From: Bongovirus bongo
Lineage: Duplodnaviria; Heunggongvirae; Uroviricota; Caudoviricetes; Vilmaviridae
Virus record (IMG/VR): IMGVR_UViG_2595698371_000001
Reading direction: 5' to 3' (one strand)
DNA length: 64,000 nucleotides
Shown here piece by piece: positions 14,838-55,274 of this stretch; the stretch's first letter is position 1, and each line of letters opens with the position of its first letter. The position numbers were made by a program, and so were the translations under genes. Under the pieces are notes generated by a model that was not told where the DNA came from, searched no databases, and saw only the letters and a list, made by a program, of their open reading frames with translations.

Positions 14838-15809
14838 ATGTGGATTGGGTGGCAGGAAGGCATGTCCGGACGGCCCGTGCTGGCGGCGAAGGGGGAGCTG
14901 CGGGCGAAGTTCTCGTACGGCAAGAACCTGGATCTGACTGAGCACTTCGGGCCCGACCTGACGGAGGCCCTGAAGACGTTCCAGCGGAACAAGGGTGGGC
15001 TGCGCACGGACGGCGTGCTGGACTACGCCACCCAGAAGGCGTTGGGCGTTCTGGAGGCGTTGAAGCCGTGGGTGTTCACGGTGGCCGGTACGGGTGCCGG
15101 TTGGGACGCGGGCTACCCGGCTGAGGTGGCGCGGGCTGTGCTGGATCTGTACCGCTGGCAGGGCGTGAACTATCCGGCGAAGCCGTTCCCGATGGGCTCG
15201 TCGGTGGACGCGGGTATTGCTGAACTGAAGAAGCTTCTGCGTGAGCGGATGGACCGGTATCCGGCCGCACGGTTCGTGCTGATCGGCTACTCGCAGGGCG
15301 CAATTGTGACCTCGATGGTGTGGCAGAACTTTATCAAGGGCTCGGACCTTGAGGCCCGCATCATCGGTTCGATCACATACGGCAACCCTTGCCGTGAACT
15401 CCACGTGGCGAATGGCAATGTGGCAGAGGGGATTCCGGTTCCCGAGGGGCGGGGGATCTCAGACTTCCGCCTGCGTTCGACTCCGTCGTGGTGGTACGAT
15501 TTTGCACACGGGGCGAACTCCCGTTTCGGCCGTGACATCTACACGGACACACCAGATGACGATGCTGGCGAGATGATGACCGCCATCTACCGCCTGGTCC
15601 AAGATCTGAAGAACATCATTGTCGGCACCGACTCGTTGATCGAGCAGGTGGGAGAGATGTTCCAGCGTCCGATCACCGAGGTCGGCGCAGCGATGTGGGC
15701 GATCTTCTTGGGCGGGCAGTTTGTTGCCACTCGCCCGTATCCGACTATGCCGCACATCAATTACGACATCAACCCAGCTGTGGCGATCCTGCGCCGGATC
15801 GCCGCGTGA
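14838..15809 (+). CDS. lysB: lysin B (cutinase-like mycolylarabinogalactan esterase)
   Basis: 323 aa; GYSQG serine-hydrolase motif; cutinase-like; follows lysA and the holin-like genes. Confidence 0.8.
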   Translation: MWIGWQEGMSGRPVLAAKGELRAKFSYGKNLDLTEHFGPDLTEALKTFQRNKGGLRTDGVLDYATQKALGVLEALKPWVFTVAGTGAGWDAGYPAEVARAVLDLYRWQGVNYPAKPFPMGSSVDAGIAELKKLLRERMDRYPAARFVLIGYSQGAIVTSMVWQNFIKGSDLEARIIGSITYGNPCRELHVANGNVAEGIPVPEGRGISDFRLRSTPSWWYDFAHGANSRFGRDIYTDTPDDDAGEMMTAIYRLVQDLKNIIVGTDSLIEQVGEMFQRPITEVGAAMWAIFLGGQFVATRPYPTMPHINYDINPAVAILRRIAA

Positions 15810-16851: not shown

Positions 16852-17043
16852 TCAGGGGCGGGCGGTGATGGCCACCGAGTCGGGCCACGACTCGCGTGGG
16901 TCGCTGTAGCCCTTGGTGATCTTCAGGTCCAGCTTCTTGGTGGTATCGACGCCGATCTGCTTGGCCTGTGCGACGAACGACTCCATGTCGGCCAAGGTCA
17001 TCGGGCTGGACAGGGTGATCTCGTGACGTATGTTAACGCTCAT
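16852..17043 (-). CDS. hypothetical protein
   Basis: 63-aa ORF, tightly packed. Confidence 0.4.
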   Translation of the reverse strand: MSVNIRHEITLSSPMTLADMESFVAQAKQIGVDTTKKLDLKITKGYSDPRESWPDSVAITARP

Positions 17044-17855: not shown

Positions 17856-18178
17856 AGCTCGCGGAAGTGCTCTCGGTAGACCGACTCGGGCATGACGACT
17901 GCCTCTTCGACGTCGGGGTCGAGCACGACCCACGAGCCGGGAGCCAGGTGGTGGGTGTCCTTTCCGGGCTCGTTGACGGTGACGAACGCCAGCGACCCGT
18001 CCTCGTTGAACGAGGCACCGACCTGCATCGGGATGCCACGACGCTCGGCCTCCTGCGCGACGATGTAGGAGACGCCCGCGAAGTTGCGGCCGGTGACCTT
18101 CACCGCGAGTGCGTACGACGGGTCCAGAACCTGGACGCGTTTGATGCCAGTTCCCTTGAGTGCGTTGTTGTTGCTCAT
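17852..18178 (-). CDS. hypothetical protein
   Basis: ATG at 18178; 109 aa; internal start of ORF-track ORF 17852..18304. Confidence 0.5.
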   Translation of the reverse strand: MSNNNALKGTGIKRVQVLDPSYALAVKVTGRNFAGVSYIVAQEAERRGIPMQVGASFNEDGSLAFVTVNEPGKDTHHLAPGSWVVLDPDVEEAVVMPESVYREHFREL

Positions 18179-18972
18179 AGCATTCCCTTCGATTTCCAGT
18201 GTTGGTAGTGCATGCCGATCAGCCAGTTGTCCAGCTGTTCGTAGTCGGGGTGATCGGGGAGGTAGGAGTTCTCCATGGCCCCCCGCAGCATGTCGGTGCG
18301 CCACTCGAGGATGTTGAGTGTCTCCGCCAACGTGTAGCGGCCTTCGCGTACCGCGAGCAGGTAGTCGCGGTGGTGGTCCTGCATCGGCAGGTAGATGTGG
18401 CCTTCGGTCATCAGCTGGTGCCCTTGGATGGCCAGCCGCGTCGCGTGGTACATCATCTTCGTGTCGTAGCCGAACTTCTGCACAAGCTCGGGCCGGTTGG
18501 TGTGCTTGCGGCCGCGAAGCCCCTGCGCCCGGTCACGCTGCGCGACAAGGTATCCGACGAACCGCTCACCGGCCTGCTTTGACAGGAACAGGTGGCGGTT
18601 GTCGATCAGCTCTTCGCCCAGCTCGTTGCGGAAGTACACATGCTGCAGCGGCGCGAACAGCGGAACCAGCACAGTCGGATTGCCCTTGGCCGCAAGGCGT
18701 GCCCACTTCGCCAGGCTGTAGATCACCTGGTCAGTGTCGCCGGGGCCCGACCGCACACCCTCAGGGATGCGGGTGCCATCAGAATGCCAGCGGTCCTGGT
18801 ACTGCTCGAACTTCTGGGTGCCGATGACACACTCGGGCGGCGCGATGCACATGCCCATCTCGTCGTTGTCGTCGGCCCCAACGGACACGCCGTGCAGACG
18901 GGAACCGACCTCAGTCTTGTAGATCAGGTTCTCGTGGGCAATCTTCCGATGCCAGGGGCTGTGGTGGCTCAC
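18175..18972 (-). CDS. Pol-beta-superfamily nucleotidyltransferase
   Basis: N-terminal GS-x-hG-x-DD-D motif (GSRLHGVSVGADDNDEMGM) typical of minimal nucleotidyltransferases; 265 aa. Confidence 0.55.
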   Translation of the reverse strand: MSHHSPWHRKIAHENLIYKTEVGSRLHGVSVGADDNDEMGMCIAPPECVIGTQKFEQYQDRWHSDGTRIPEGVRSGPGDTDQVIYSLAKWARLAAKGNPTVLVPLFAPLQHVYFRNELGEELIDNRHLFLSKQAGERFVGYLVAQRDRAQGLRGRKHTNRPELVQKFGYDTKMMYHATRLAIQGHQLMTEGHIYLPMQDHHRDYLLAVREGRYTLAETLNILEWRTDMLRGAMENSYLPDHPDYEQLDNWLIGMHYQHWKSKGML

Positions 18973-23396: not shown

Positions 23397-23713
23397 GCGA
23401 GAAGACGATTGAGCAGCAGCTCACGGACATCCTCGAGGCCGAGGAGGGCGACGACCTGTACTGCCTGCGGGCAGAGCCTGACGTTGAGATCGGCGGCTTC
23501 CGGCACGTCGATGTCGAAGAGGGCGACAACCGGCGCTGGGCGCGGGGCGACATGGTCATCGTGCAGCACGTCGAGTCGGGCAAGTACTACGCGTTCGACT
23601 ACGACACCGGTCTGACGGAGTACCAGGAAGACGAGGTCTACCCCGACTCGGTGCGCGAGGTCGAAAAGACCACCAAGACCGTCGAAGTGACCATCTGGAA
23701 GAAGGTCAAGTGA
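23393..23713 (+). CDS. hypothetical protein
   Basis: ATGA overlap; 106 aa; acidic. Confidence 0.45.
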   Translation: MSEKTIEQQLTDILEAEEGDDLYCLRAEPDVEIGGFRHVDVEEGDNRRWARGDMVIVQHVESGKYYAFDYDTGLTEYQEDEVYPDSVREVEKTTKTVEVTIWKKVK

Positions 23714-24297
23714 GCGAGGACTGCGACGAGTTCACCTCGCAGGAATCCACTTACGTGGTGGTGAAGGATGGCGGCACCACCACCATCAAGTACTACTTCC
23801 GTGGCTACATCGACCAGGAGAAGGTCTCCCCGTTCATCGAGACGATGTTCTTCTGGGACGCCGAGTATCCAGACTCCAACTGGGACATCACCATCAACTC
23901 CGAGGGCGGCGAGATCTTCCCGTCCATCGCCGCGTACGGGGCCCTCAGCGGCTACAGCGCACGCAAGGAGGGTGGGCATCTCATAACGACCCGTGTCGCC
24001 GGTCTGGCCGCATCCGGTGGGGAGCTGCTGTTCCAGGCGGGCGACATTCGCGTCGGCGGGCTGATGGACATGCTGATGATCCACCAGCCGCTGTGCTCCT
24101 ACGAGGACACGTCGGTGTCGCAGATCCGCGCGGACTTGGATCGCGCCGACCAGTGGACCCACCGTCTCGCCCTGATCCACGCGGAGCGGTCCCACCTGTC
24201 GGTGGAGGAGTTCCTGGACAAGGTGAAGCAGGGGGACTGGTGGATGTTCGCCGACGAGGCGGTGGAGCTTGGGTTCGCTGACGAGGTTCTTTCGTGA
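23710..24297 (+). CDS. ClpP-like serine protease
   Basis: 195 aa; GGEIFPSIAAYGAL...AASGGELLFQAG...MIHQP matches ClpP active-site regions. Confidence 0.55.
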   Translation: MSEDCDEFTSQESTYVVVKDGGTTTIKYYFRGYIDQEKVSPFIETMFFWDAEYPDSNWDITINSEGGEIFPSIAAYGALSGYSARKEGGHLITTRVAGLAASGGELLFQAGDIRVGGLMDMLMIHQPLCSYEDTSVSQIRADLDRADQWTHRLALIHAERSHLSVEEFLDKVKQGDWWMFADEAVELGFADEVLS

Positions 24298-36716: not shown

Positions 36717-37043
36717 TTGCCCACGAACTCAAAGAACGGCCCACGCTCTCGCGGCCGAACGGGCGGCAAGTTTGAACGGGCGAAGTGGCGCGTTCTCAAG
36801 GCAAACCAGATCTGCGCCCACCCAGACTGCCGTCAACTCATCGACCTGGACCTCAAGTGGCCGGATCCGATGAGCCCCACCGTGAACCACATCATCCCCG
36901 TCAAGGACTTGGCCTGGGATGACCCTCTGACGTACTCGGTGGAGAACCTCGAGCCCATGCACCTGGTGTGCAACCAGCGTCTCGGCGCTGGGCCCCGCAA
37001 GAAAAAGCCGAAGCATCCGCAGTCGCGGAACTGGCGCGAATGA
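36717..37043 (+). CDS. HNH endonuclease
   Basis: CAHPDC...NHIIPV...N..CN HNH motif; TTG start. Confidence 0.6.
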   Translation: MPTNSKNGPRSRGRTGGKFERAKWRVLKANQICAHPDCRQLIDLDLKWPDPMSPTVNHIIPVKDLAWDDPLTYSVENLEPMHLVCNQRLGAGPRKKKPKHPQSRNWRE

Positions 37044-37131
37044 CCTCGTCAGCAAACTCGTGCTAAACTGGAAGCAGATGGCAGCGCCCCTTCGGGTAGC
37101 GCGCAGCAAATTTCGATCCTAAGGACTTCAC

Positions 37132-37341
37132 ATGGCTTCTCCTCAGAACCCTTTCGTGCCGCTCGACCCAGCGGACTACAACCTGTCCGGCTCGCAGGCG
37201 GCCGAGGATGCCCTGGCGGGGATCATGAAGCCGCTCGTCGGCGCTGGCCCGCATGACGACCTGACGGTGGAAGAGCTGAATCAGCGATTCGACGGCACCG
37301 GCTCGCCGCGTCCACATACGTTCCCGACTCCGCAGAACTGA
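37132..37341 (+). CDS. hypothetical protein
   Basis: 69 aa; last CDS before the tRNA array. Confidence 0.4.
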   Translation: MASPQNPFVPLDPADYNLSGSQAAEDALAGIMKPLVGAGPHDDLTVEELNQRFDGTGSPRPHTFPTPQN

Positions 37342-37410
37342 GGTTCTGAGGTGTAGGCCCTCGAAGAGGCCCCCGGTCAGCGTATGTGCTGGTCGGGGGC
37401 CTTTTTGGTT

Positions 37411-37428
37411 CTTCCTGTAATCACCTCC
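37411..37428 (+). promoter_or_regulatory. B-motif copy CTTCCTGTAATCACCTCC at the entrance of the tRNA array
   Basis: 140 bp upstream of the first tRNA. Confidence 0.45.
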
Positions 37429-37566
37429 GCGCGGCCTCTAATCTATTTCATGTCCGGTTCAAGAGGGACCGGATAAGCGATACACCGGAGGGGCCAAGTA
37501 CCCACACCTTTCAAGCCTGGTTCCTCCACTGGGGCTCAACAGAGTTGAGGCTGAAGAGTCCCACCT

Positions 37567-37637
37567 ATGGGCGTAGCTGACTGGGAAGCAACGGTCTCCA
37601 AAGCCGTGATATGCAGGTTCGAATCCTGCCGCCCGTG
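37567..37637 (+). tRNA. tRNA-Trp (anticodon CCA)
   Basis: acceptor ATGGGCG/CGCCCGT; anticodon stem ACGGT/GCCGT with loop CTCCAAA; T-arm GCAGG-TTCGAAT-CCTGC; 3-bp D stem. Confidence 0.55.
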
Positions 37638-37718
37638 CAAGGTTCGATGTTCGGTCATTACCGAACGCCGAGCATGTTGGTTGAGAACTCAATAGTGGAA
37701 GTACAAGTAAGTTTCAAT

Positions 37719-38121
37719 GGGGCTGTACTGGTTTCGATTGCGAACCGAGTCCATGGAAGCGTGCCGGGAAGATACGCCCGTAACAGTTCAACCCTTATAA
37801 GCGCCGCATTTGTTGACGCTGATTACGCCGTAGCTGCGTGATCCGGTGGGGCACAACGGTTCACCCGTTCCCGTGTGCAATCCCGCCGTCGCCAAAACGG
37901 GGAACCTGCATACCGACTCAGCATGCAGTGAGCCAGCAATGGTCATAATGCAGATGTCCTCCCGCCGTGAGGAGCGTAGATCGGCTTTGTACCCACACGG
38001 TGACCCTTCGAGGGTTAAGCCCTGTGAGCCAATGGGATACGAGATGAGTTACAGGCTACGCACGTAGAAGAATGAGTACAGAGAACGTAAGACGCGGGTT
38101 CGATTCCCGCCAGCTCCACCA
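37719..38121 (+). ncRNA. ssrA: tmRNA (ssrA), about 403 nt
   Basis: 5' GGGGCTG pairs with 3' CAGCTCC including the G3-U70 wobble; canonical 3' tRNA-like end GCGGGTTCGATTCCCGC-CAGCTCCACCA; internal tag-like frame ...ADYAVAA followed by TGA at about 37826-37850; no credible CDS across the interval. Confidence 0.8.
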
Positions 38122-38486
38122 AGGCCTTGGTCTGGGTTCGAATCCCAGTGTGATTGAAGTGGATTCACGGATGTGCACCCGTGTCTACGCTCCGGTGGGT
38201 AGCTCCCAGCCGCGTTCACATGGTGTAAATGGCAAGCACAGGGCCTGTAAACCGGTTTCCCATCTCCGACCAAAGGATGGGTGGTGGAAACGAACTGGGT
38301 CTTAGGCAACCCCGTTCAGTCCTCGGCGTCCCAGTCCGTCGTCACCCAGACTGGGTAAGCCTAAGTGCCTGCCACAGAGCTAACCCGTGAGGTCGGGAGA
38401 ATCTGGGCACGCTTGACAGCGGAGCGGGAGACTGCGAAAGGTGTCCGTCCTAGCCCTGGTATCGACGTTAAATATCCAGGGACTCT

Positions 38487-38557
38487 TGGCCTGTCGGTTA
38501 ACGGCAAACCAGCGCCCTGTTAAGGCGTGACTCCTGGTTCGAATCCAGGTAGGCCAG
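38487..38557 (+). tRNA. tRNA-Asn (anticodon GUU)
   Basis: U1-A72 acceptor TGGCCTG/TAGGCCA (as in E. coli tRNA-Asn); D stem GGTT/AACC; anticodon arm GCGCC-CTGTTAA-GGCGT; T-arm CCTGG-TTCGAAT-CCAGG. Confidence 0.6.
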
Positions 38558-39316
38558 CATTTGGGGCATGGCCCATAAGCTGAGGTGACTCAGTGAAAGG
38601 TGAGGGTGACTCCTCGCCGCCCGCAAGGGTCCCCATGCAATCCAAACCTTGAGCAGTCCCCTGTGGGGCTGCCAGGATGCGAGTTCATCGTGTGACCAAC
38701 GCCAAGTGGTGAGGTCGGGTTCGGTACCGTGCCGAAGAGCCAGCGAGTAACGGATGAGCAGCCTGTGGGGCGGAAGGAACTTGAGTCGGAGGCCTGGCAG
38801 CCAACGGCGGGTTCCATGACCGATCTCGCGTGGACGACGGTTCACAATGCGGTTGAGGGAGAGAGTGAGTAGCCCGCCAGGCAAAAGCTCGAGAGGCGTG
38901 AAGCATTCTGTAGCTCAAAAGGTTACGGAACTTCATGGGGAAGCACGTCTCTAGTCACAACTACCACGCTATTGGTTAGCAAACTGTCCTGAACACAGTT
39001 GTAGAGGTTCGACTCCTCACAAAGCAAAAGCCTTTCCCTGCCGGTAAGCGAAAGCGCCACTAATCCCCGACTGGGAGCAGAATCGGGGCAGGACGAGCCC
39101 GCAAGGCGGATCCTGTTTGTAGACGAGTAGTGCAGCCATGGGACGGCCATCCTAACGGCGAAGCCAAAGTCGCAGAGTAGCTTTCGGCATTACGAGTGGT
39201 CAGCGTTACTGACCGGGCGTTGCACGTACACAGGGGACTGTGTGGACAAGCCGGGAATCCATAATCCGGCGAAAGCGTGTGAAGGAAGGTTTAGTCTCTA
39301 GCCCTTTCAACAACGG

Positions 39317-39386
39317 GACATAGCTCAAATGGCAGAGTGGGGCAATTGGTGCCCTGGATTCAGGTTCGACTCCTGGTGGCCCGACG
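39317..39386 (+). other. tRNA-like element, either a pseudo-tRNA or an atypical tRNA-Gln(UUG); the anticodon region is 2 nt short or has A33
   Basis: good acceptor (CGGGACA/TGGCCCG), U8, D-arm GCTC-AAATGGCA-GAGT and T-arm TCAGG-TTCGACT-CCTGG, but the anticodon arm cannot be folded canonically. Confidence 0.3.
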
Positions 39387-39388
39387 TT

Positions 39389-39766
39389 ATGGCACTGGCA
39401 GGTGAAGCGAAGCGTGAGTACCAGCGACAGTGGCGAGCGAATCGCCGCGCGGCCTGGTTTGCCGGTAAGGCGTGTGTTCGGTGTGGATCTGATGAGGATC
39501 TAGAACTCGACCACGTAGACCCGACGTTGAAGGTGACGAATGCGGTCTGGTCATGGTCGCAGGAGCGCCGCGACGTGGAGCTTGCGAAGTGTCAAGTGCT
39601 CTGCAACGCTTGCCATAAGGCTAAGACCATATCCCAGACCGTCATCACTATCGGTCTGAAGGCGTACCGCCATGGCACGTGCAGCATGTACGAGCATCAC
39701 CGATGCAGGTGCGGACTGTGTAGGTTGTGGGCGCGAAACAAGAAGCGGCGTCAACGCGCCGCGTGA
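39389..39766 (+). CDS. HNH endonuclease, paralog 1 of the tRNA-array pair
   Basis: ATG immediately after the tRNA-like element; CVRCGS...LELDHVDPT...CNACH; about 60% identical to the 44049 gene over the N-terminus (REYQRQWRANRRAAWFAGKAC versus REYMRRWVANRRSAFFASKQC). Confidence 0.65.
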   Translation: MALAGEAKREYQRQWRANRRAAWFAGKACVRCGSDEDLELDHVDPTLKVTNAVWSWSQERRDVELAKCQVLCNACHKAKTISQTVITIGLKAYRHGTCSMYEHHRCRCGLCRLWARNKKRRQRAA

Positions 39767-44647: not shown

Positions 44648-45886
44648 TTGACCCCGACTACTTTAGCTCCGAAGATTGTCAACTTCGCTTCGGAGATCGA
44701 CCAAGCGACGATTGACCAAGCCAAGCAGATCGCGGAGATGCCGTTCATCTACCCGCACCTGGCGCTGATGCCGGATGCCCACTCGGGCAAGGGATCTGCG
44801 GTCGGCACCGTCATCCCCACCAAGGGCGCTGTCATTCCGGCCGCTGTTGGGGTGGACATCGGCTGCGGCATGATTGCCGTCAAGACGCGGTTCCAGTGGG
44901 ACGCACTGCACACCGCGAAGGCTGGCGCTCCGGATCTGGCTGCGCTGCGCCGTCAGATTGAGGCGGCGATTCCGCTGTCTCCCGGCAACTACAACACGAC
45001 GCTGTCGAAGTTCAACTTCACACGCAAGAAGCACGAAGAGCTGATCCAGTTGCAGCAGGAGCTGGACGTGGACCTGTCTCACTCGCCGAAGTGGATGGAG
45101 CAGCTGGGATCTCTCGGCGGCGGCAACCACTTCATCGAGTTGTGTGTCGACGCCGAGGACAACGTGTGGCTGTTCCTGCACTCCGGTTCTCGCGGAGTCG
45201 GCAACAAGATCGCGCAGCGCCACATCAAGGCGGCTGTGGAGTACTGCGCAGAGGGTGCGCGGCTGGCTGGCTCCGATTCGGTTCGCGCCCGCTACCGACT
45301 CCCTCACCGAGATCTCGCGTTCCTGGACGAGGGAACGTGGATGTTCGACACGTACATCAAGGAGCTGGAGTGGGCCCAGCGGTTCGCGTACCTGAACCGT
45401 GCGGAGATGATGGACCGCTTCGTCCAGGTGTTCGCGTGGTGGATGGGCGTCGAGGCTCAGCGTGTCGAGGTGGAGCGCATCAACTGCCACCACAACTACA
45501 CGGTCCCCACCGTGATCGACGGGGAGCGAGTGTGGTTGACCCGCAAGGGGGCAATCGACGCGACCGAGGGCAAGCTGGGCGTGATCCCGGGCTCGATGGG
45601 CACCCGGTCGTACGTGGTGCGGGGGAAGGGCTGCAGCGCTTCTTTGCATTCTGCGCCCCATGGAGCCGGTCGCCGGTTCTCCCGCACGAAGGCCAAGGAA
45701 CTGTTCACCAGGGATGACCTGGCCGAGCAGATGCAGGGCATCGAGTGGCGCGAGGACATCGCCGAGAAGCTGGTCGATGAGATCCCGTCCTGCTACAAGG
45801 ACATCGACCAGGTCATGGCCGATGCCGAACCGCTGGTGGACGTGGTGACAACCCTGCGCCAGGTTCTCAACGTCAAGGGCACCTAG
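44648..45886 (+). CDS. rtcB: RtcB-family RNA ligase (3'-phosphate/5'-hydroxyl)
   Basis: 412 aa; metal-ligand motifs (HSGKGS..., GGGNHFIE, HSGSRG, NCHHN, HGAGR); TTG start with GAAGGGA SD. Confidence 0.85.
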   Translation: MTPTTLAPKIVNFASEIDQATIDQAKQIAEMPFIYPHLALMPDAHSGKGSAVGTVIPTKGAVIPAAVGVDIGCGMIAVKTRFQWDALHTAKAGAPDLAALRRQIEAAIPLSPGNYNTTLSKFNFTRKKHEELIQLQQELDVDLSHSPKWMEQLGSLGGGNHFIELCVDAEDNVWLFLHSGSRGVGNKIAQRHIKAAVEYCAEGARLAGSDSVRARYRLPHRDLAFLDEGTWMFDTYIKELEWAQRFAYLNRAEMMDRFVQVFAWWMGVEAQRVEVERINCHHNYTVPTVIDGERVWLTRKGAIDATEGKLGVIPGSMGTRSYVVRGKGCSASLHSAPHGAGRRFSRTKAKELFTRDDLAEQMQGIEWREDIAEKLVDEIPSCYKDIDQVMADAEPLVDVVTTLRQVLNVKGT

Positions 45887-54436: not shown

Positions 54437-54961
54437 CTAGATGGGGTTCTTCAGGTAATCAATCCACTTGTCGCAGTTGCGGATCACCTTCTGCCTGTGC
54501 TGCACCTTGGTGCGCTTCGCGCAGTGACTGCACACCCGGTAGCCGCGTGCCTGCACCTCGTCAATGGTGAGGCCGGTGAGATGGGGGAGCGGGTCAATCG
54601 GCGTCCGCAGCGTGATCGTGCGGCAGAACGTGCTGGTATGCACCGCGCCTGATGGAACTTGCACGTGGCAGTCGAACTCTCCATGGCGCAGCCACGTGCG
54701 CCTGGCATTGCTGAGCATGTCGGCCAGGCGTTCCCCCCGTGGCCGCATGGCAGCTGCCATCTCGCATGCTCCCTGCCGCGTGAATCGTTCGAACTGTTTG
54801 CGGAACGACCGCATCTCATCGAAAAGTGCAGTTATTTCAGATACTACTTCTATCAACTCCTCTTTGCTCATCGCTTGTTGTACTCGTACATGTGGCAACC
54901 ACCCTCCCGTTGTGGCAATCGTTGATGCTTTCGCGAGTGGTAATTTTACTAGAGCCCTCAT
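54437..54961 (-). CDS. hypothetical protein with a C-terminal Cys motif
   Basis: 174 aa; GCGAAGGGAATC immediately before the ATG. Confidence 0.5.
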   Translation of the reverse strand: MRALVKLPLAKASTIATTGGWLPHVRVQQAMSKEELIEVVSEITALFDEMRSFRKQFERFTRQGACEMAAAMRPRGERLADMLSNARRTWLRHGEFDCHVQVPSGAVHTSTFCRTITLRTPIDPLPHLTGLTIDEVQARGYRVCSHCAKRTKVQHRQKVIRNCDKWIDYLKNPI

Positions 54962-55070
54962 GATTCCCTTCGCCTACCAGCGGGTTCGTGACGCCCGCCG
55001 TGACCGATAAACGTTGCTGAACACAGCAGAAGGGCACCGGATCGGCTGACCCGGTGCCCTTCCTCCCTAC

Positions 55071-55274
55071 TCAGTGAACGTCGACGCTCTGGTCGTGGTA
55101 GCCCATGCGGTGCAACAGTTCATCGAGTGCGCCCGCCAGATTGTTACGGGCGAACGACTCGAAGTCGGCGCGGATCTTGTCCGGCCCGCCGTCGATGCCG
55201 TAGTCGATGGCCCACGCGTCGAGGTCCATGTCCTTGACGGTGACGGTGAATGTGAAGTCGCCGCGCCCGGTCAT
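55071..55274 (-). CDS. hypothetical protein
   Basis: ATGA overlap; 67 aa. Confidence 0.4.
   Translation of the reverse strand: MTGRGDFTFTVTVKDMDLDAWAIDYGIDGGPDKIRADFESFARNNLAGALDELLHRMGYHDQSVDVH

What the first reader, a model, noticed from the sequence alone, without database searches (positions are those of the whole stretch)
37719..38121. Phage-encoded tmRNA with an atypical tag
The 5' GGGGCTG and the 3' ...GGTTCGATTCCCGCCAGCTCCACCA form the canonical tmRNA acceptor, including the G3-U70 AlaRS determinant and an encoded CCA. An internal short frame ends in ...D-Y-A-V-A-A followed by TGA; this is ALAA-like but ends in VAA. Every ORF-track ORF over the interval is short, in mixed frames and not credible. 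A phage tmRNA next to a near-complete tRNA set suggests the phage manipulates host trans-translation. The tag (approximately AAFVDADYAVAA) differs from the mycobacterial ADSHQRDYALAA and could change the fate of tagged proteins.
Basis: partly seen in the sequence, partly recalled or inferred. Interest (0 to 1): 0.6.

Follow-up and report, generated by a model that had tools for sequence, protein, structure and literature searches.

The report
Known phage tmRNA, variant tag
This is a genuine transfer-messenger RNA gene of mycobacteriophage PegLeg; it is already annotated at these exact coordinates in GenBank, has an intact architecture, and its short tag differs from the host's but still looks like a degradation signal, so the finding is correct but ordinary.

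Summary
The window is Mycobacterium phage PegLeg (cluster M1). Window 37719-38121 (+) is a full-length one-piece tmRNA: Rfam RF00023 gives 98.4 bits, E 3.5e-37, at exactly these coordinates. The GenBank record already carries a tmRNA feature there (PEGLEG_91). ARAGORN misses it at default settings. At a 95% threshold it gives a single call at the same coordinates, with tag AAFVDADYAVAA*.

Homologues follow tRNA-Trp in cluster M phages, related M. abscessus prophages and Wildcat; Kumao has one too. On 10 of them, 97.7% of cells in my structure pair, against 32-51% for slid controls. Eight pairs change on both sides, including stop codon UGA/UAG against GAU/GAC in helix 5. The central PK3-PK4 part is mosaic between phages.

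The phage RNA is about 50% identical to mycobacterial ssrA. It keeps the acceptor stem with G3-U, the UAAGC|GCC resume context and the DYAxAA tag end. Host tags end in ALAA; PegLeg's ends in AVAA, as does Caulobacter's ssrA tag.

No SmpB gene was found, so it most likely works with host SmpB, AlaRS and EF-Tu as an extra ribosome-rescue RNA. Function is untested.

The parts
37719..38121 (+). Complete one-piece tmRNA (ssrA) gene, 403 nt, with encoded CCA
   Evidence: Rfam RF00023 98.4 bits, E 3.5e-37, model 1-374. ARAGORN -ps gives the same ends. GenBank has a tmRNA feature PEGLEG_91 at record 54674-55076, which is these coordinates.
37719..37725 (+). Acceptor stem 5' strand GGGGCUG (G3 of the G3-U pair)
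   Evidence: Pairs with 38111-38117. All 7 pairs, including G-U at position 3, are invariant in the 10 aligned homologues and in 12 distinct TLD+H2 constructs from 16 phage sequences. The same stem sequence occurs in host ssrA.
37738..37764 (+). Helix 2, 5' strand (tmRNA positions 20-46)
   Evidence: Pairs with 38060-38090. H2a, H2b and H2d are 97-100% paired across homologues, with changes on both sides in H2a and H2b in the 16-sequence set.
37765..37789 (+). Pseudoknot 1 (stem 1 CGGG/CCCG, positions 47-50/59-62; stem 2, positions 53-55/69-71)
   Evidence: Stem 1 is invariant. Stem 2 has one compensatory pair (A-U in cluster M, C-G in M. abscessus prophages) but only 2 Watson-Crick pairs plus U-U in PegLeg.
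37798..37802 (+). Resume-codon upstream context UAAGC (U at -5, A at -4)
   Evidence: The sequence UAAGC|GCC is the same in host mycobacterial ssrA. The -5/-4 U and A correspond to E. coli U85 and A86, and A86 is the main determinant of frame choice (PMC2481249).
37803..37841 (+). Tag reading frame: 12 codons, AAFVDADYAVAA, plus UGA stop
   Evidence: ARAGORN -ps and the Rfam alignment of the resume codon. The frame is kept in all homologues. Between M1 and M2, three codons differ only synonymously and two change the residue.
37821..37843 (+). Helix 5 (positions 103-110/118-125); the stop codon lies in its 3' strand
   Evidence: 8 bp, 100% of cells paired. The stop codon UGA/UAG covaries with GAU/GAC, so U-A becomes C-G.
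37844..37902 (+). Pseudoknot 2 (helices 6a and 6b, positions 126-170; helix 7, positions 146-151/178-183)
   Evidence: The outer pairs of helix 6b change on both sides at 3 of 5 positions (CACA/UGUG against UUCA/UGAA). The loop CCCGUU and its partner AACGGG are conserved.
37906..37932 (+). Extra hairpin CUGCAU/AUGCAG, with a possible 4-bp loop-to-flank pairing CUCA/UGAG
   Evidence: Seen in the sequence only. No comparative support, because only Aziz-type relatives share this stretch.
37959..37985 (+). Pseudoknot 3 (CUCC/GGAG, positions 241-244/253-256; GCCG/CGGC, positions 246-249/264-267)
   Evidence: U-A becomes A-U in UViG L140 (CACC/GGUG). Read off the alignment.
37989..38055 (+). Pseudoknot 4 (GUACCCA/UGGGAUAC, positions 271-277/315-322; CCUGU/ACAGG, positions 303-307/333-337; inner hairpin, positions 285-297)
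   Evidence: The pair 307-333 is U-A in PegLeg, U-G in Aziz and C-G in SlimJimmy. L140 has CUCGCAG/CUGCGAG and CCGUGC/GCACGG in the matching places.
38060..38090 (+). Helix 2, 3' strand (positions 342-372)
38094..38121 (+). T arm GCGGG-UUCGAUU-CCCGC, acceptor 3' strand CAGCUCC, and ACCA
   Evidence: The T stem changes on both sides at 2 of 5 pairs in 10 sequences and at 3 of 5 in 16 sequences.
37567..37638 (+). tRNA-Trp(CCA), 80 nt upstream; a conserved neighbour of the tmRNA
   Evidence: ARAGORN and Rfam. tRNA-Trp precedes the tmRNA in cluster M phages, M. abscessus prophages and Wildcat; none is annotated upstream in Kumao.
37361..37408 (+). Terminator-like 20-bp hairpin plus T run, before the tRNA-Trp/tmRNA/tRNA array
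   Evidence: Consensus scan only. It may mark the end of the preceding transcription unit. No sigma-70-type promoter was found in 37000-39400.

Best explanation
Window 37719-38121 is the ssrA gene of mycobacteriophage PegLeg (cluster M1, Vilmaviridae). It encodes a complete one-piece tmRNA. The inferred mechanism is as follows. The RNA is transcribed with the tRNA array and trimmed like a tRNA. Host alanyl-tRNA synthetase charges it with alanine through the G3-U acceptor pair, and host SmpB binds it. EF-Tu delivers it to ribosomes stalled on broken or stop-less mRNAs in the infected or lysogenic cell. Translation resumes at GCC (37803), adds AAFVDADYAVAA and terminates at UGA, which frees the ribosome. 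The tag keeps the host-like D-Y-A-x-A-A end, so tagged products are probably still sent to the host Clp proteases. The gene is one part of a phage translation-maintenance set, together with tRNAs for 18 amino acids, the RtcB RNA ligase and an RlaP-family nucleotidyltransferase. That set would keep ribosomes available while mRNAs and tRNAs are being damaged or turned over. What is shown here: the identity, the intact architecture, conservation with compensatory changes, and the absence of a detectable phage SmpB in the part examined. What is inferred: expression, charging, use of host SmpB, the fate of tagged proteins and any benefit to the phage.
For: Rfam tmRNA gives 98.4 bits, E 3.5e-37, full model length, and ARAGORN -ps gives the same gene and tag. 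The window is 100% identical to PegLeg, and the record annotates a tmRNA at the same place. Homologues scoring 85-118 bits occur in 11 other loci of cluster M phages, M. abscessus prophages, Wildcat and Kumao, most of them next to tRNA-Trp. For the structure I proposed, 97.7% of cells pair, against 32-51% when partners are slid. Eight pairs change on both sides, against 0-1 in slid controls and in 0 of 500 shuffles. Further compensatory changes are seen in the T arm, H2a, PK2, PK3 and PK4. The stop codon UGA/UAG covaries with GAU/GAC inside helix 5. The resume context UAAGC|GCC is identical to that of host ssrA and has U at -5 and A at -4. The tag frame is preserved in all homologues, with synonymous differences. 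The RNA is only about 50% identical to mycobacterial ssrA overall, so it is an old, maintained phage gene rather than a recent host fragment. No SmpB family hit appeared among 39 mid-size CDSs of the window, and none is annotated. RtcB and RlaP are present in the same genome.
Against: There are no expression, charging or tagging data for this or any mycobacteriophage tmRNA in the papers I could search. Stem 2 of PK1 is weak in PegLeg: two Watson-Crick pairs and a U-U. ARAGORN scores the gene just under its default threshold. M2 relatives have tag ends AVGA and AVGV, which do not look like a canonical degron, so proteolytic tagging may not be what is selected. The first 17 kb of the phage genome lies outside the window and was not checked for SmpB. 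The Pfam table shows only the 25 best of 33 families; the 8 not shown have weaker E-values (above 5e-4).
Confidence: 0.75

Rival explanations
1. The phage tmRNA rescues ribosomes but deliberately alters what happens to the tagged proteins. Its tag would be a weaker or different degron, or would be directed to a phage-modified protease such as one containing the ClpP-like gp58. Incomplete proteins would then be spared or routed differently than with the host tag.
For: The tag's first half (AAFVDA) is unlike the host's ADSNQR, and position -3 is V rather than L. Within cluster M the end drifts further, to AVGA (Aziz, Rey, Nanosmite) and AVGV (Estes, MrMagoo). PegLeg encodes a ClpP-family protein outside the structural genes, with sequence motifs resembling the ClpP Ser, His and Asp motifs (my reading).
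Against: PegLeg's own tag keeps D-Y-A-x-A-A, and AVAA is also the end of the Caulobacter ssrA tag, which is used to destabilise proteins. ClpP-like genes of this type occur in many mycobacteriophages of other kinds, none of which appeared among the tmRNA matches, so there is no specific link. Related prophages in M. abscessus keep ALAA or VLAA.
Confidence: 0.12
2. The RNA acts as a decoy or inhibitor. It would bind and titrate host SmpB (and AlaRS or EF-Tu) and so shut down host trans-translation, as proposed for the TLD-only molecule of phage DS6A.
For: Hudson et al. (PMC4131195) note that a TLD-only RNA strongly inhibits tmRNA, perhaps by titrating SmpB, and that phage DS6A carries little more than a TLD. 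The phage TLD is nearly identical to the host's. No phage SmpB was found.
Against: A decoy needs only the TLD. Here the resume context, the tag frame with synonymous changes, the stop codon held in helix 5 by covariation, and PK1-PK4 are all maintained across a phage family.
Confidence: 0.07
3. It is a non-functional passenger: a captured host ssrA copy, or a leftover of integration into a tmRNA gene (an attP-type fragment), carried along in a recombination-prone tRNA array.
For: [quoted passage not shown] The array is full of HNH endonuclease genes and mosaic joints, and the central part of the tmRNA itself is mosaic between phages. A tRNA 3' fragment lies right after the gene.
Against: The gene is full length, not a 3' fragment. 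It lies 13.4 kb from the integrase. It is only about 50% identical to host ssrA. It is conserved with compensatory changes in cluster M phages, M. abscessus prophages, Wildcat and Kumao, which indicates selection on the fold.
Confidence: 0.05

Closest known systems
The tmRNA annotated in Mycobacterium phage PegLeg (NC_021299.1, PEGLEG_91, 54674-55076) and its identical copy in Bongo
   Same: It is the same sequence at the same coordinates. The window is PegLeg.
   Different: Nothing differs in sequence. The record gives no tag peptide and no product name beyond 'gp91'. Eleven of the 15 listed records with the identical 403 nt have no feature there at all.
tmRNAs of subcluster M2 phages (Aziz, Rey, GenevaB15) and of M. 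abscessus prophages (prophiGD54-2, prophi86-1)
   Same: They share the position after tRNA-Trp and nearly the same TLD, H2, PK1, H5 and PK2. Aziz is 93.8% identical over the full length.
   Different: The tags differ: AAFVAADYAVGA in M2 by ARAGORN (GenevaB15's record says AADVAADYAAVGA), and ANAHQSDYALAA or AASAQSDYALAA in the prophages. The PK3-PK4 region is replaced by unrelated sequence in Rey, Estes, MrMagoo, Nanosmite and Reindeer.
Host ssrA of Mycolicibacterium smegmatis and other mycobacteria (tag ADSNQRDYALAA or ADSHQRDYALAA)
   Same: The acceptor stem, T loop, GAAGCGUGCCGG junction, UAAGC|GCC resume context, 12-codon tag and D-Y-A-x-A-A end are shared.
   Different: Overall identity is about 50%. 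PK1 is shorter, the pseudoknots are different, the first six tag residues are unrelated, and the tag has V instead of L at -3. CCA is encoded in PegLeg but not in the four host genes aligned.
tmRNAs of other mycobacteriophages listed on the tmRNA Website (Bxz1-type cluster C phages, Wildcat; PMC4131195)
   Same: These are one-piece phage tmRNAs sitting in large tRNA sets of M. smegmatis phages.
   Different: The Wildcat and Kumao tags are long (22 and 31 residues) and end in LVAA. Only the last ~64 nt (Wildcat) or a ~51-nt segment near the 5' end, query 38-88 (Kumao), are alignable by blastn. Cluster C was not compared here.

Membership tests
tmRNA (Rfam RF00023, one-piece ssrA RNA) | Covariance-model score above the curated threshold over the full model | tested here: met
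   98.4 bits against a gathering score of 47, model positions 1-374 of 374, E 3.5e-37.
tmRNA (Rfam RF00023, one-piece ssrA RNA) | tRNA-like domain: a 7-bp acceptor stem formed by the 5' and 3' ends with G3-U70, a T arm with a GUUCGAUUC-type loop, a discriminator A and CCA | tested here: met
   Read directly from the sequence and shown in the ARAGORN bracket structure. The acceptor pairs are invariant and the T stem shows compensatory changes.
tmRNA (Rfam RF00023, one-piece ssrA RNA) | Long helix 2 linking the tRNA-like domain to the rest of the molecule | tested here: met
   H2a, H2b and H2d are 97-100% paired, with changes on both sides.
tmRNA (Rfam RF00023, one-piece ssrA RNA) | Pseudoknot 1 just upstream of the resume codon | tested here: inconclusive
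   Stem 1 (4 bp) is invariant. Stem 2 has one compensatory pair across the family but only two Watson-Crick pairs plus U-U in PegLeg. No pseudoknot energy model was run.
tmRNA (Rfam RF00023, one-piece ssrA RNA) | mRNA-like domain: an Ala resume codon with U/A at -5/-4, a short in-frame tag, and a stop codon in or next to helix 5 | tested here: met
   UAAGC|GCC, 12 codons and UGA inside an 8-bp helix 5. The stop codon covaries with its partner.
tmRNA (Rfam RF00023, one-piece ssrA RNA) | Pseudoknots PK2-PK4 downstream of the tag | tested here: met
   PK2 is supported by three double-sided changes. PK3 and PK4 are supported by comparison with Aziz, SlimJimmy and UViG L140. The Rfam model leaves 115 nt of this region unaligned.
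tmRNA (Rfam RF00023, one-piece ssrA RNA) | Tag ending in a hydrophobic-Ala-Ala degron | tested here: met
   The tag ends in AVAA, against host ALAA and Caulobacter AVAA. Whether mycobacterial ClpX or ClpC1 accepts it cannot be tested here.
tmRNA (Rfam RF00023, one-piece ssrA RNA) | Partner protein SmpB available | tested here: not met
   The phage supplies none. There is no SmpB hit among 39 CDSs of 110-265 aa in the window and none is annotated. The host encodes SmpB (PMC6133939), so this does not argue against membership.
tmRNA (Rfam RF00023, one-piece ssrA RNA) | Expressed, charged with alanine, and active in trans-translation | not testable with these tools
   No experimental data were found for any mycobacteriophage tmRNA.

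The most novel reading that the evidence does not exclude
In this phage family, selection on the tmRNA may be for ribosome release rather than for proteolysis, or for a tag tuned to something other than the host ClpX/ClpC1 degron. The tag end drifts from ALAA and VLAA (M. abscessus prophages) to AVAA (M1, this window), AVGA and AVGV (M2), while the TLD, resume context, H5 and PK2 stay fixed. The PK3-PK4 block is also swapped wholesale between otherwise close phages. If so, phage tmRNAs would be a natural experiment that separates the two halves of trans-translation. The variable block could mark an interaction with host nucleases or defence systems.
Probability: 0.1. Interest if true: 0.5.

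Novelty: already known. Interest (0 to 1): 0.15.

Why it matters
For the scan, this is a correct call of a feature that is already in the database, so it adds nothing new about PegLeg.

Two practical points do follow. First, ARAGORN at default settings misses this tmRNA and those of SlimJimmy, Reindeer, MrMagoo, Nanosmite and Estes. As a result, 11 of the 15 listed GenBank records that hold the identical 403 nt carry no tmRNA feature, and counts of phage tmRNAs based on ARAGORN are underestimates. Second, no phage tmRNA of mycobacteria appears to have been tested for function. The set of natural tag variants assembled here (ALAA, VLAA, AVAA, AVGA, AVGV, LVAA) would make a ready panel for asking whether phages need the tagging half of trans-translation.

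Tried and rejected
- **ARAGORN at default settings** found nothing. This turned out to be a threshold effect, not evidence against the gene.
- **Metagenome scan** with a 32-nt pattern specific to this lineage gave 0 hits. The viral-contig scan gave 9 hits, of which 4 were new sequences.
I used other Mycolicibacterium species and took the M. smegmatis tag from PMC6133939.
- **SmpB next to ssrA** in a host locus (L016), wanted as a query: it is not adjacent there. I scanned 39 window CDSs against Pfam instead.
- **Link between the ClpP-like gp58 and the tmRNA** was rejected as a specific association. ClpP-like genes of this type occur in many mycobacteriophages of other kinds, none of which appeared among the tmRNA matches.
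- **attP or integration relic** was rejected. The integrase is 13.4 kb away and the gene is full length.
- **The spacer 38122-38486** has no unusual fold, z -0.72.
- **No sigma-70-type promoter** was found near the gene by the simple scan.
- **Unavailable papers:** Pope et al. 2014 (PMC3958112), the cluster M description, and Hatfull 2018 (PMC6282025) are not held. I could not check what they say about this tmRNA.

Full report
**Identity of the window.** A 20-kb stretch around the finding is 100% identical to Mycobacterium phage PegLeg (NC_021299.1; cluster M1, Bongovirus, Vilmaviridae; host M. smegmatis mc2 155). Window position 1 corresponds to record position 16956. The PegLeg record carries a feature of type tmRNA, PEGLEG_91 ('gp91'), at 54674-55076.

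**Check of the observation.**
- The sequence shows GGGGCTG at 37719-37725 and ...GCGGGTTCGATTCCCGCCAGCTCCACCA ending at 38121. The two ends form a 7-bp acceptor stem with G3-U, followed by A and CCA.
- Rfam's tmRNA model (RF00023) matches 37719-38121 over its whole length, at 98.4 bits against a gathering score of 47, E 3.5e-37.
- ARAGORN does not report a tmRNA at default settings. Run locally with -ps (95% of the threshold), it returns a single tmRNA with the same ends, resume context tataagc|gcc and tag AAFVDADYAVAA*. The gene therefore sits just under ARAGORN's default cut-off.
- ORFs of at least 30 aa over the interval are short, on both strands and overlapping.

**Relatives.**
- blastn finds the identical 403 nt in 15 listed phage records. 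Eleven of them have no annotated feature there.
- It finds 94% identity in the M2 phages Aziz and GenevaB15, which are annotated as tmRNA. It finds 88% in SlimJimmy.
- In Reindeer, MrMagoo, GardenSalsa, Nanosmite, Rey and Estes only the two ends align. More distant copies occur in the M. abscessus prophages prophiGD54-2 and prophi86-1, and in Wildcat-type phages and Kumao.
- Rfam scores all eleven fetched loci at 85-118 bits. ARAGORN at default settings calls only six of them.
- In cluster M phages, the M. abscessus prophages and Wildcat the gene follows tRNA-Trp(CCA). The gene is therefore a long-standing component of this phage family.
- A lineage-specific 32-nt pattern found four more copies in IMG/VR contigs and none in the metagenome collection.

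**Structure.** I wrote a structure for PegLeg from the sequence and tested it on the 10-sequence alignment A1.
- 62 pairs in 11 helices gave 97.7% of cells paired, against 31.6-50.9% when the 3' partners are slid by 1-3 columns.
- Eight pairs change on both sides, against 0-1 in the slid controls. None of 500 shuffles reached the observed values for pairing, double-sided changes or covariation score.
- The acceptor stem is invariant, including G3-U.
- The T stem, H2a, H2b, the outer part of PK2 helix 6b and PK1 stem 2 carry compensatory changes.
- Helix 5 is an 8-bp stem that holds the last codons. The stop codon changes from UGA (cluster M) to UAG (prophages) together with GAU to GAC on the other strand.
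- PK3 and PK4 can be drawn. They are supported by U-A to A-U in UViG L140, and by a U-A, U-G, C-G series across PegLeg, Aziz and SlimJimmy.
- PK1 stem 2 is weak in PegLeg: G-C, A-U and then U-U.
- The stretch between PK2 and helix 2 is mosaic. PegLeg and Aziz share it, SlimJimmy shares only its second half, and Reindeer shares its end with prophiGD54-2 and Wildcat. Rey, MrMagoo and Nanosmite have a different block.

That test is not met.

**The tag.** The Rfam alignment and ARAGORN both place the resume codon at GCC, 37803. The five bases before it are UAAGC, giving U at -5 and A at -4. These match E. coli U85 and A86, and A86 is the main determinant of frame choice (PMC2481249). Host mycobacterial ssrA genes have the same UAAGC|GCC.

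| Source | Tag |
|---|---|
| M1 (PegLeg, SlimJimmy, Reindeer) | AAFVDADYAVAA |
| Aziz, Rey, Nanosmite | AAFVAADYAVGA |
| Estes, MrMagoo | AAFVAADYAVGV |
| M. abscessus prophages and related viral contigs | ANAHQSDYALAA, AASAQSDYALAA, ANAHQSDYVLAA |
| Wildcat | AVDTDVDFAMWEAELASDLVAA |
| Kumao | 31 residues ending in GALVAA |
| One viral contig (L136) | 30 residues ending in EFLVAA |

Between M1 and M2, three codons differ only synonymously and two change the residue.

**Comparison with the host.** A pattern scan of bacterial genomes returned 120 ssrA loci, mostly Mycobacteriaceae, and 109 full genes could be cut out. Their tags are ADSNQRDYALAA (39), ADSHQRDYALAA (27) and close variants, and all correctly parsed ones end in ALAA. 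The M. smegmatis tag is ADSNQRDYALAA (PMC6133939). The Mtb tag directs substrates to ClpXP1P2 and ClpC1P1P2 in vitro (PMC4416901). PegLeg's RNA is 49-51% identical to four Mycolicibacterium ssrA genes in a global alignment. It shares the acceptor stem, T loop, GAAGCGUGCCGG junction, resume context and the DYAxAA tag end. It is a diverged homologue, not a recent copy. The AVAA end is not exotic: the Caulobacter ssrA tag AANDNFAEEFAVAA ends the same way and is used to destabilise proteins (PMC1233412).

**Genomic context.**
- The gene opens a 7-kb array with tRNAs for 18 amino acids (no Ala or Cys), several HNH endonuclease genes and a GOLLD RNA. The array ends at an RtcB RNA ligase gene.
- A 20-bp terminator-like hairpin lies upstream of tRNA-Trp. 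No sigma-70-type promoter was found.
- The integrase is 13.4 kb downstream, so the gene is not part of an attachment site.
- No SmpB is annotated. None appeared when 39 CDSs of 110-265 aa were scanned against Pfam. The first 17 kb of the phage lies outside the window.
- A ClpP-family gene (gp58) is present. Similar genes occur in many mycobacteriophages that did not appear among the tmRNA matches, so I do not link it to the tag.

**Mechanism.** The best-supported reading is a working tmRNA that relies on host SmpB, AlaRS and EF-Tu and adds capacity for ribosome rescue in infected or lysogenic cells. It would act as part of a phage-borne translation-maintenance and RNA-repair set. Maintenance of the frame, the resume context, the stop codon in helix 5 and all pseudoknots argues against a pure SmpB decoy. 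The decoy idea has been raised for the TLD-only RNA of phage DS6A (PMC4131195). The same conservation argues against a dead passenger. Whether the tag changes the fate of tagged proteins is open. For PegLeg the tag still looks like a degron, while the M2 ends AVGA and AVGV look less like one. No experiment on any mycobacteriophage tmRNA turned up. Published discussion of phage tmRNAs is speculative, proposing maintenance of the hijacked machinery or selective tagging of host proteins (PMC9004378).

**Novelty.** The gene is already annotated in this very record. tmRNA genes have been reported in cluster M tRNA arrays (PMC5966550) and in the M2 phage Aziz (PMC7953290). Mycobacteriophage tmRNAs have been known since Bxz1, Catera and Wildcat (PMC1475703; PMC4131195). 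About 2.3% of phage genomes carry one by ARAGORN (PMC9004378). The finding is correct and ordinary. The small additions here are the tag catalogue, the covariation support, the mosaic PK3-PK4 block and the under-annotation caused by ARAGORN's threshold.

Noticed in passing
window 38891-39304 (+): A full-length GOLLD RNA (Rfam RF02032, 216 bits, E 7.6e-60) lies between CDS gp94 and tRNA-Gln(UUG). The PegLeg record has no feature there. Aziz has one too (L002:2640-3053, 201 bits). GOLLD inside mycobacterial tRNA clusters, probably of phage origin, is published (PMC6582537).
   Followed up: partly
window 38559-38630 (+): The GenBank record annotates a second tRNA-Asn(GTT) here (PEGLEG_93). Neither ARAGORN nor Rfam (even at E up to 1) finds a tRNA, and the sequence does not look like one. 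It is probably a mis-annotation.
   Followed up: partly
window 38122-38160 (+): Directly after the tmRNA's CCA there is a tRNA 3'-fragment-like element: T arm CTGGG-TTCGAAT-CCCAG followed by TGTGATT, with no matching 5' half. It may be a remnant of array rearrangement. The rest of the 365-nt spacer up to tRNA-Asn has no special fold (z -0.72).
   Followed up: partly
window 18175-18972 (-): gp47 is named NrdC in RefSeq but matches Pfam RlaP (PF10127, RNA-repair-pathway nucleotidyltransferase) at 1.7e-29 over its whole length. Together with RtcB (gp119, 44648-45886, PF01139, 2.2e-106), the phage carries an RNA-repair pair.
   Followed up: partly
window 23710-24297 (+): gp58 is a ClpP-family protein (PF00574, 8.2e-19) in the early, non-structural region, with sequence motifs resembling the ClpP Ser, His and Asp motifs (my reading). 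Homologues at 28-31% identity are annotated as ClpP-like protease in many mycobacteriophages that did not appear among the tmRNA matches, so there is no specific tie to the tag.
   Followed up: partly
window 15399-15494 (+): ARAGORN calls a 96-nt tRNA-Arg(CCG) inside the endolysin gene gp38. There is no Rfam hit and no GenBank feature, so it is likely a false positive.
   Followed up: no
L010:601-962 (prophi86-1 tmRNA): This tmRNA looks chimeric. Its helix-2 5' strand matches the UViG L133 type while its 3' strand matches the prophiGD54-2 type, which leaves part of helix 2 unpaired. It has the lowest Rfam score (85.9 bits) of the cluster M-type and prophage copies; only Wildcat (84.9) is lower.
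   Followed up: no
phage records listed; loci L003-L006, L008: ARAGORN at default settings misses the tmRNA in PegLeg, SlimJimmy, Reindeer, MrMagoo, Nanosmite and Estes, although Rfam scores them at 96-112 bits. Eleven of 15 listed records with the identical 403 nt have no tmRNA feature, and the Estes announcement reports a tmRNA only in Aziz.
   Followed up: yes
window 37361-37408 (+): A 20-bp GC-rich hairpin followed by a T run (terminator-like) lies between gp89 and tRNA-Trp. It may separate the early protein genes from the tRNA/tmRNA array transcript.
   Followed up: no
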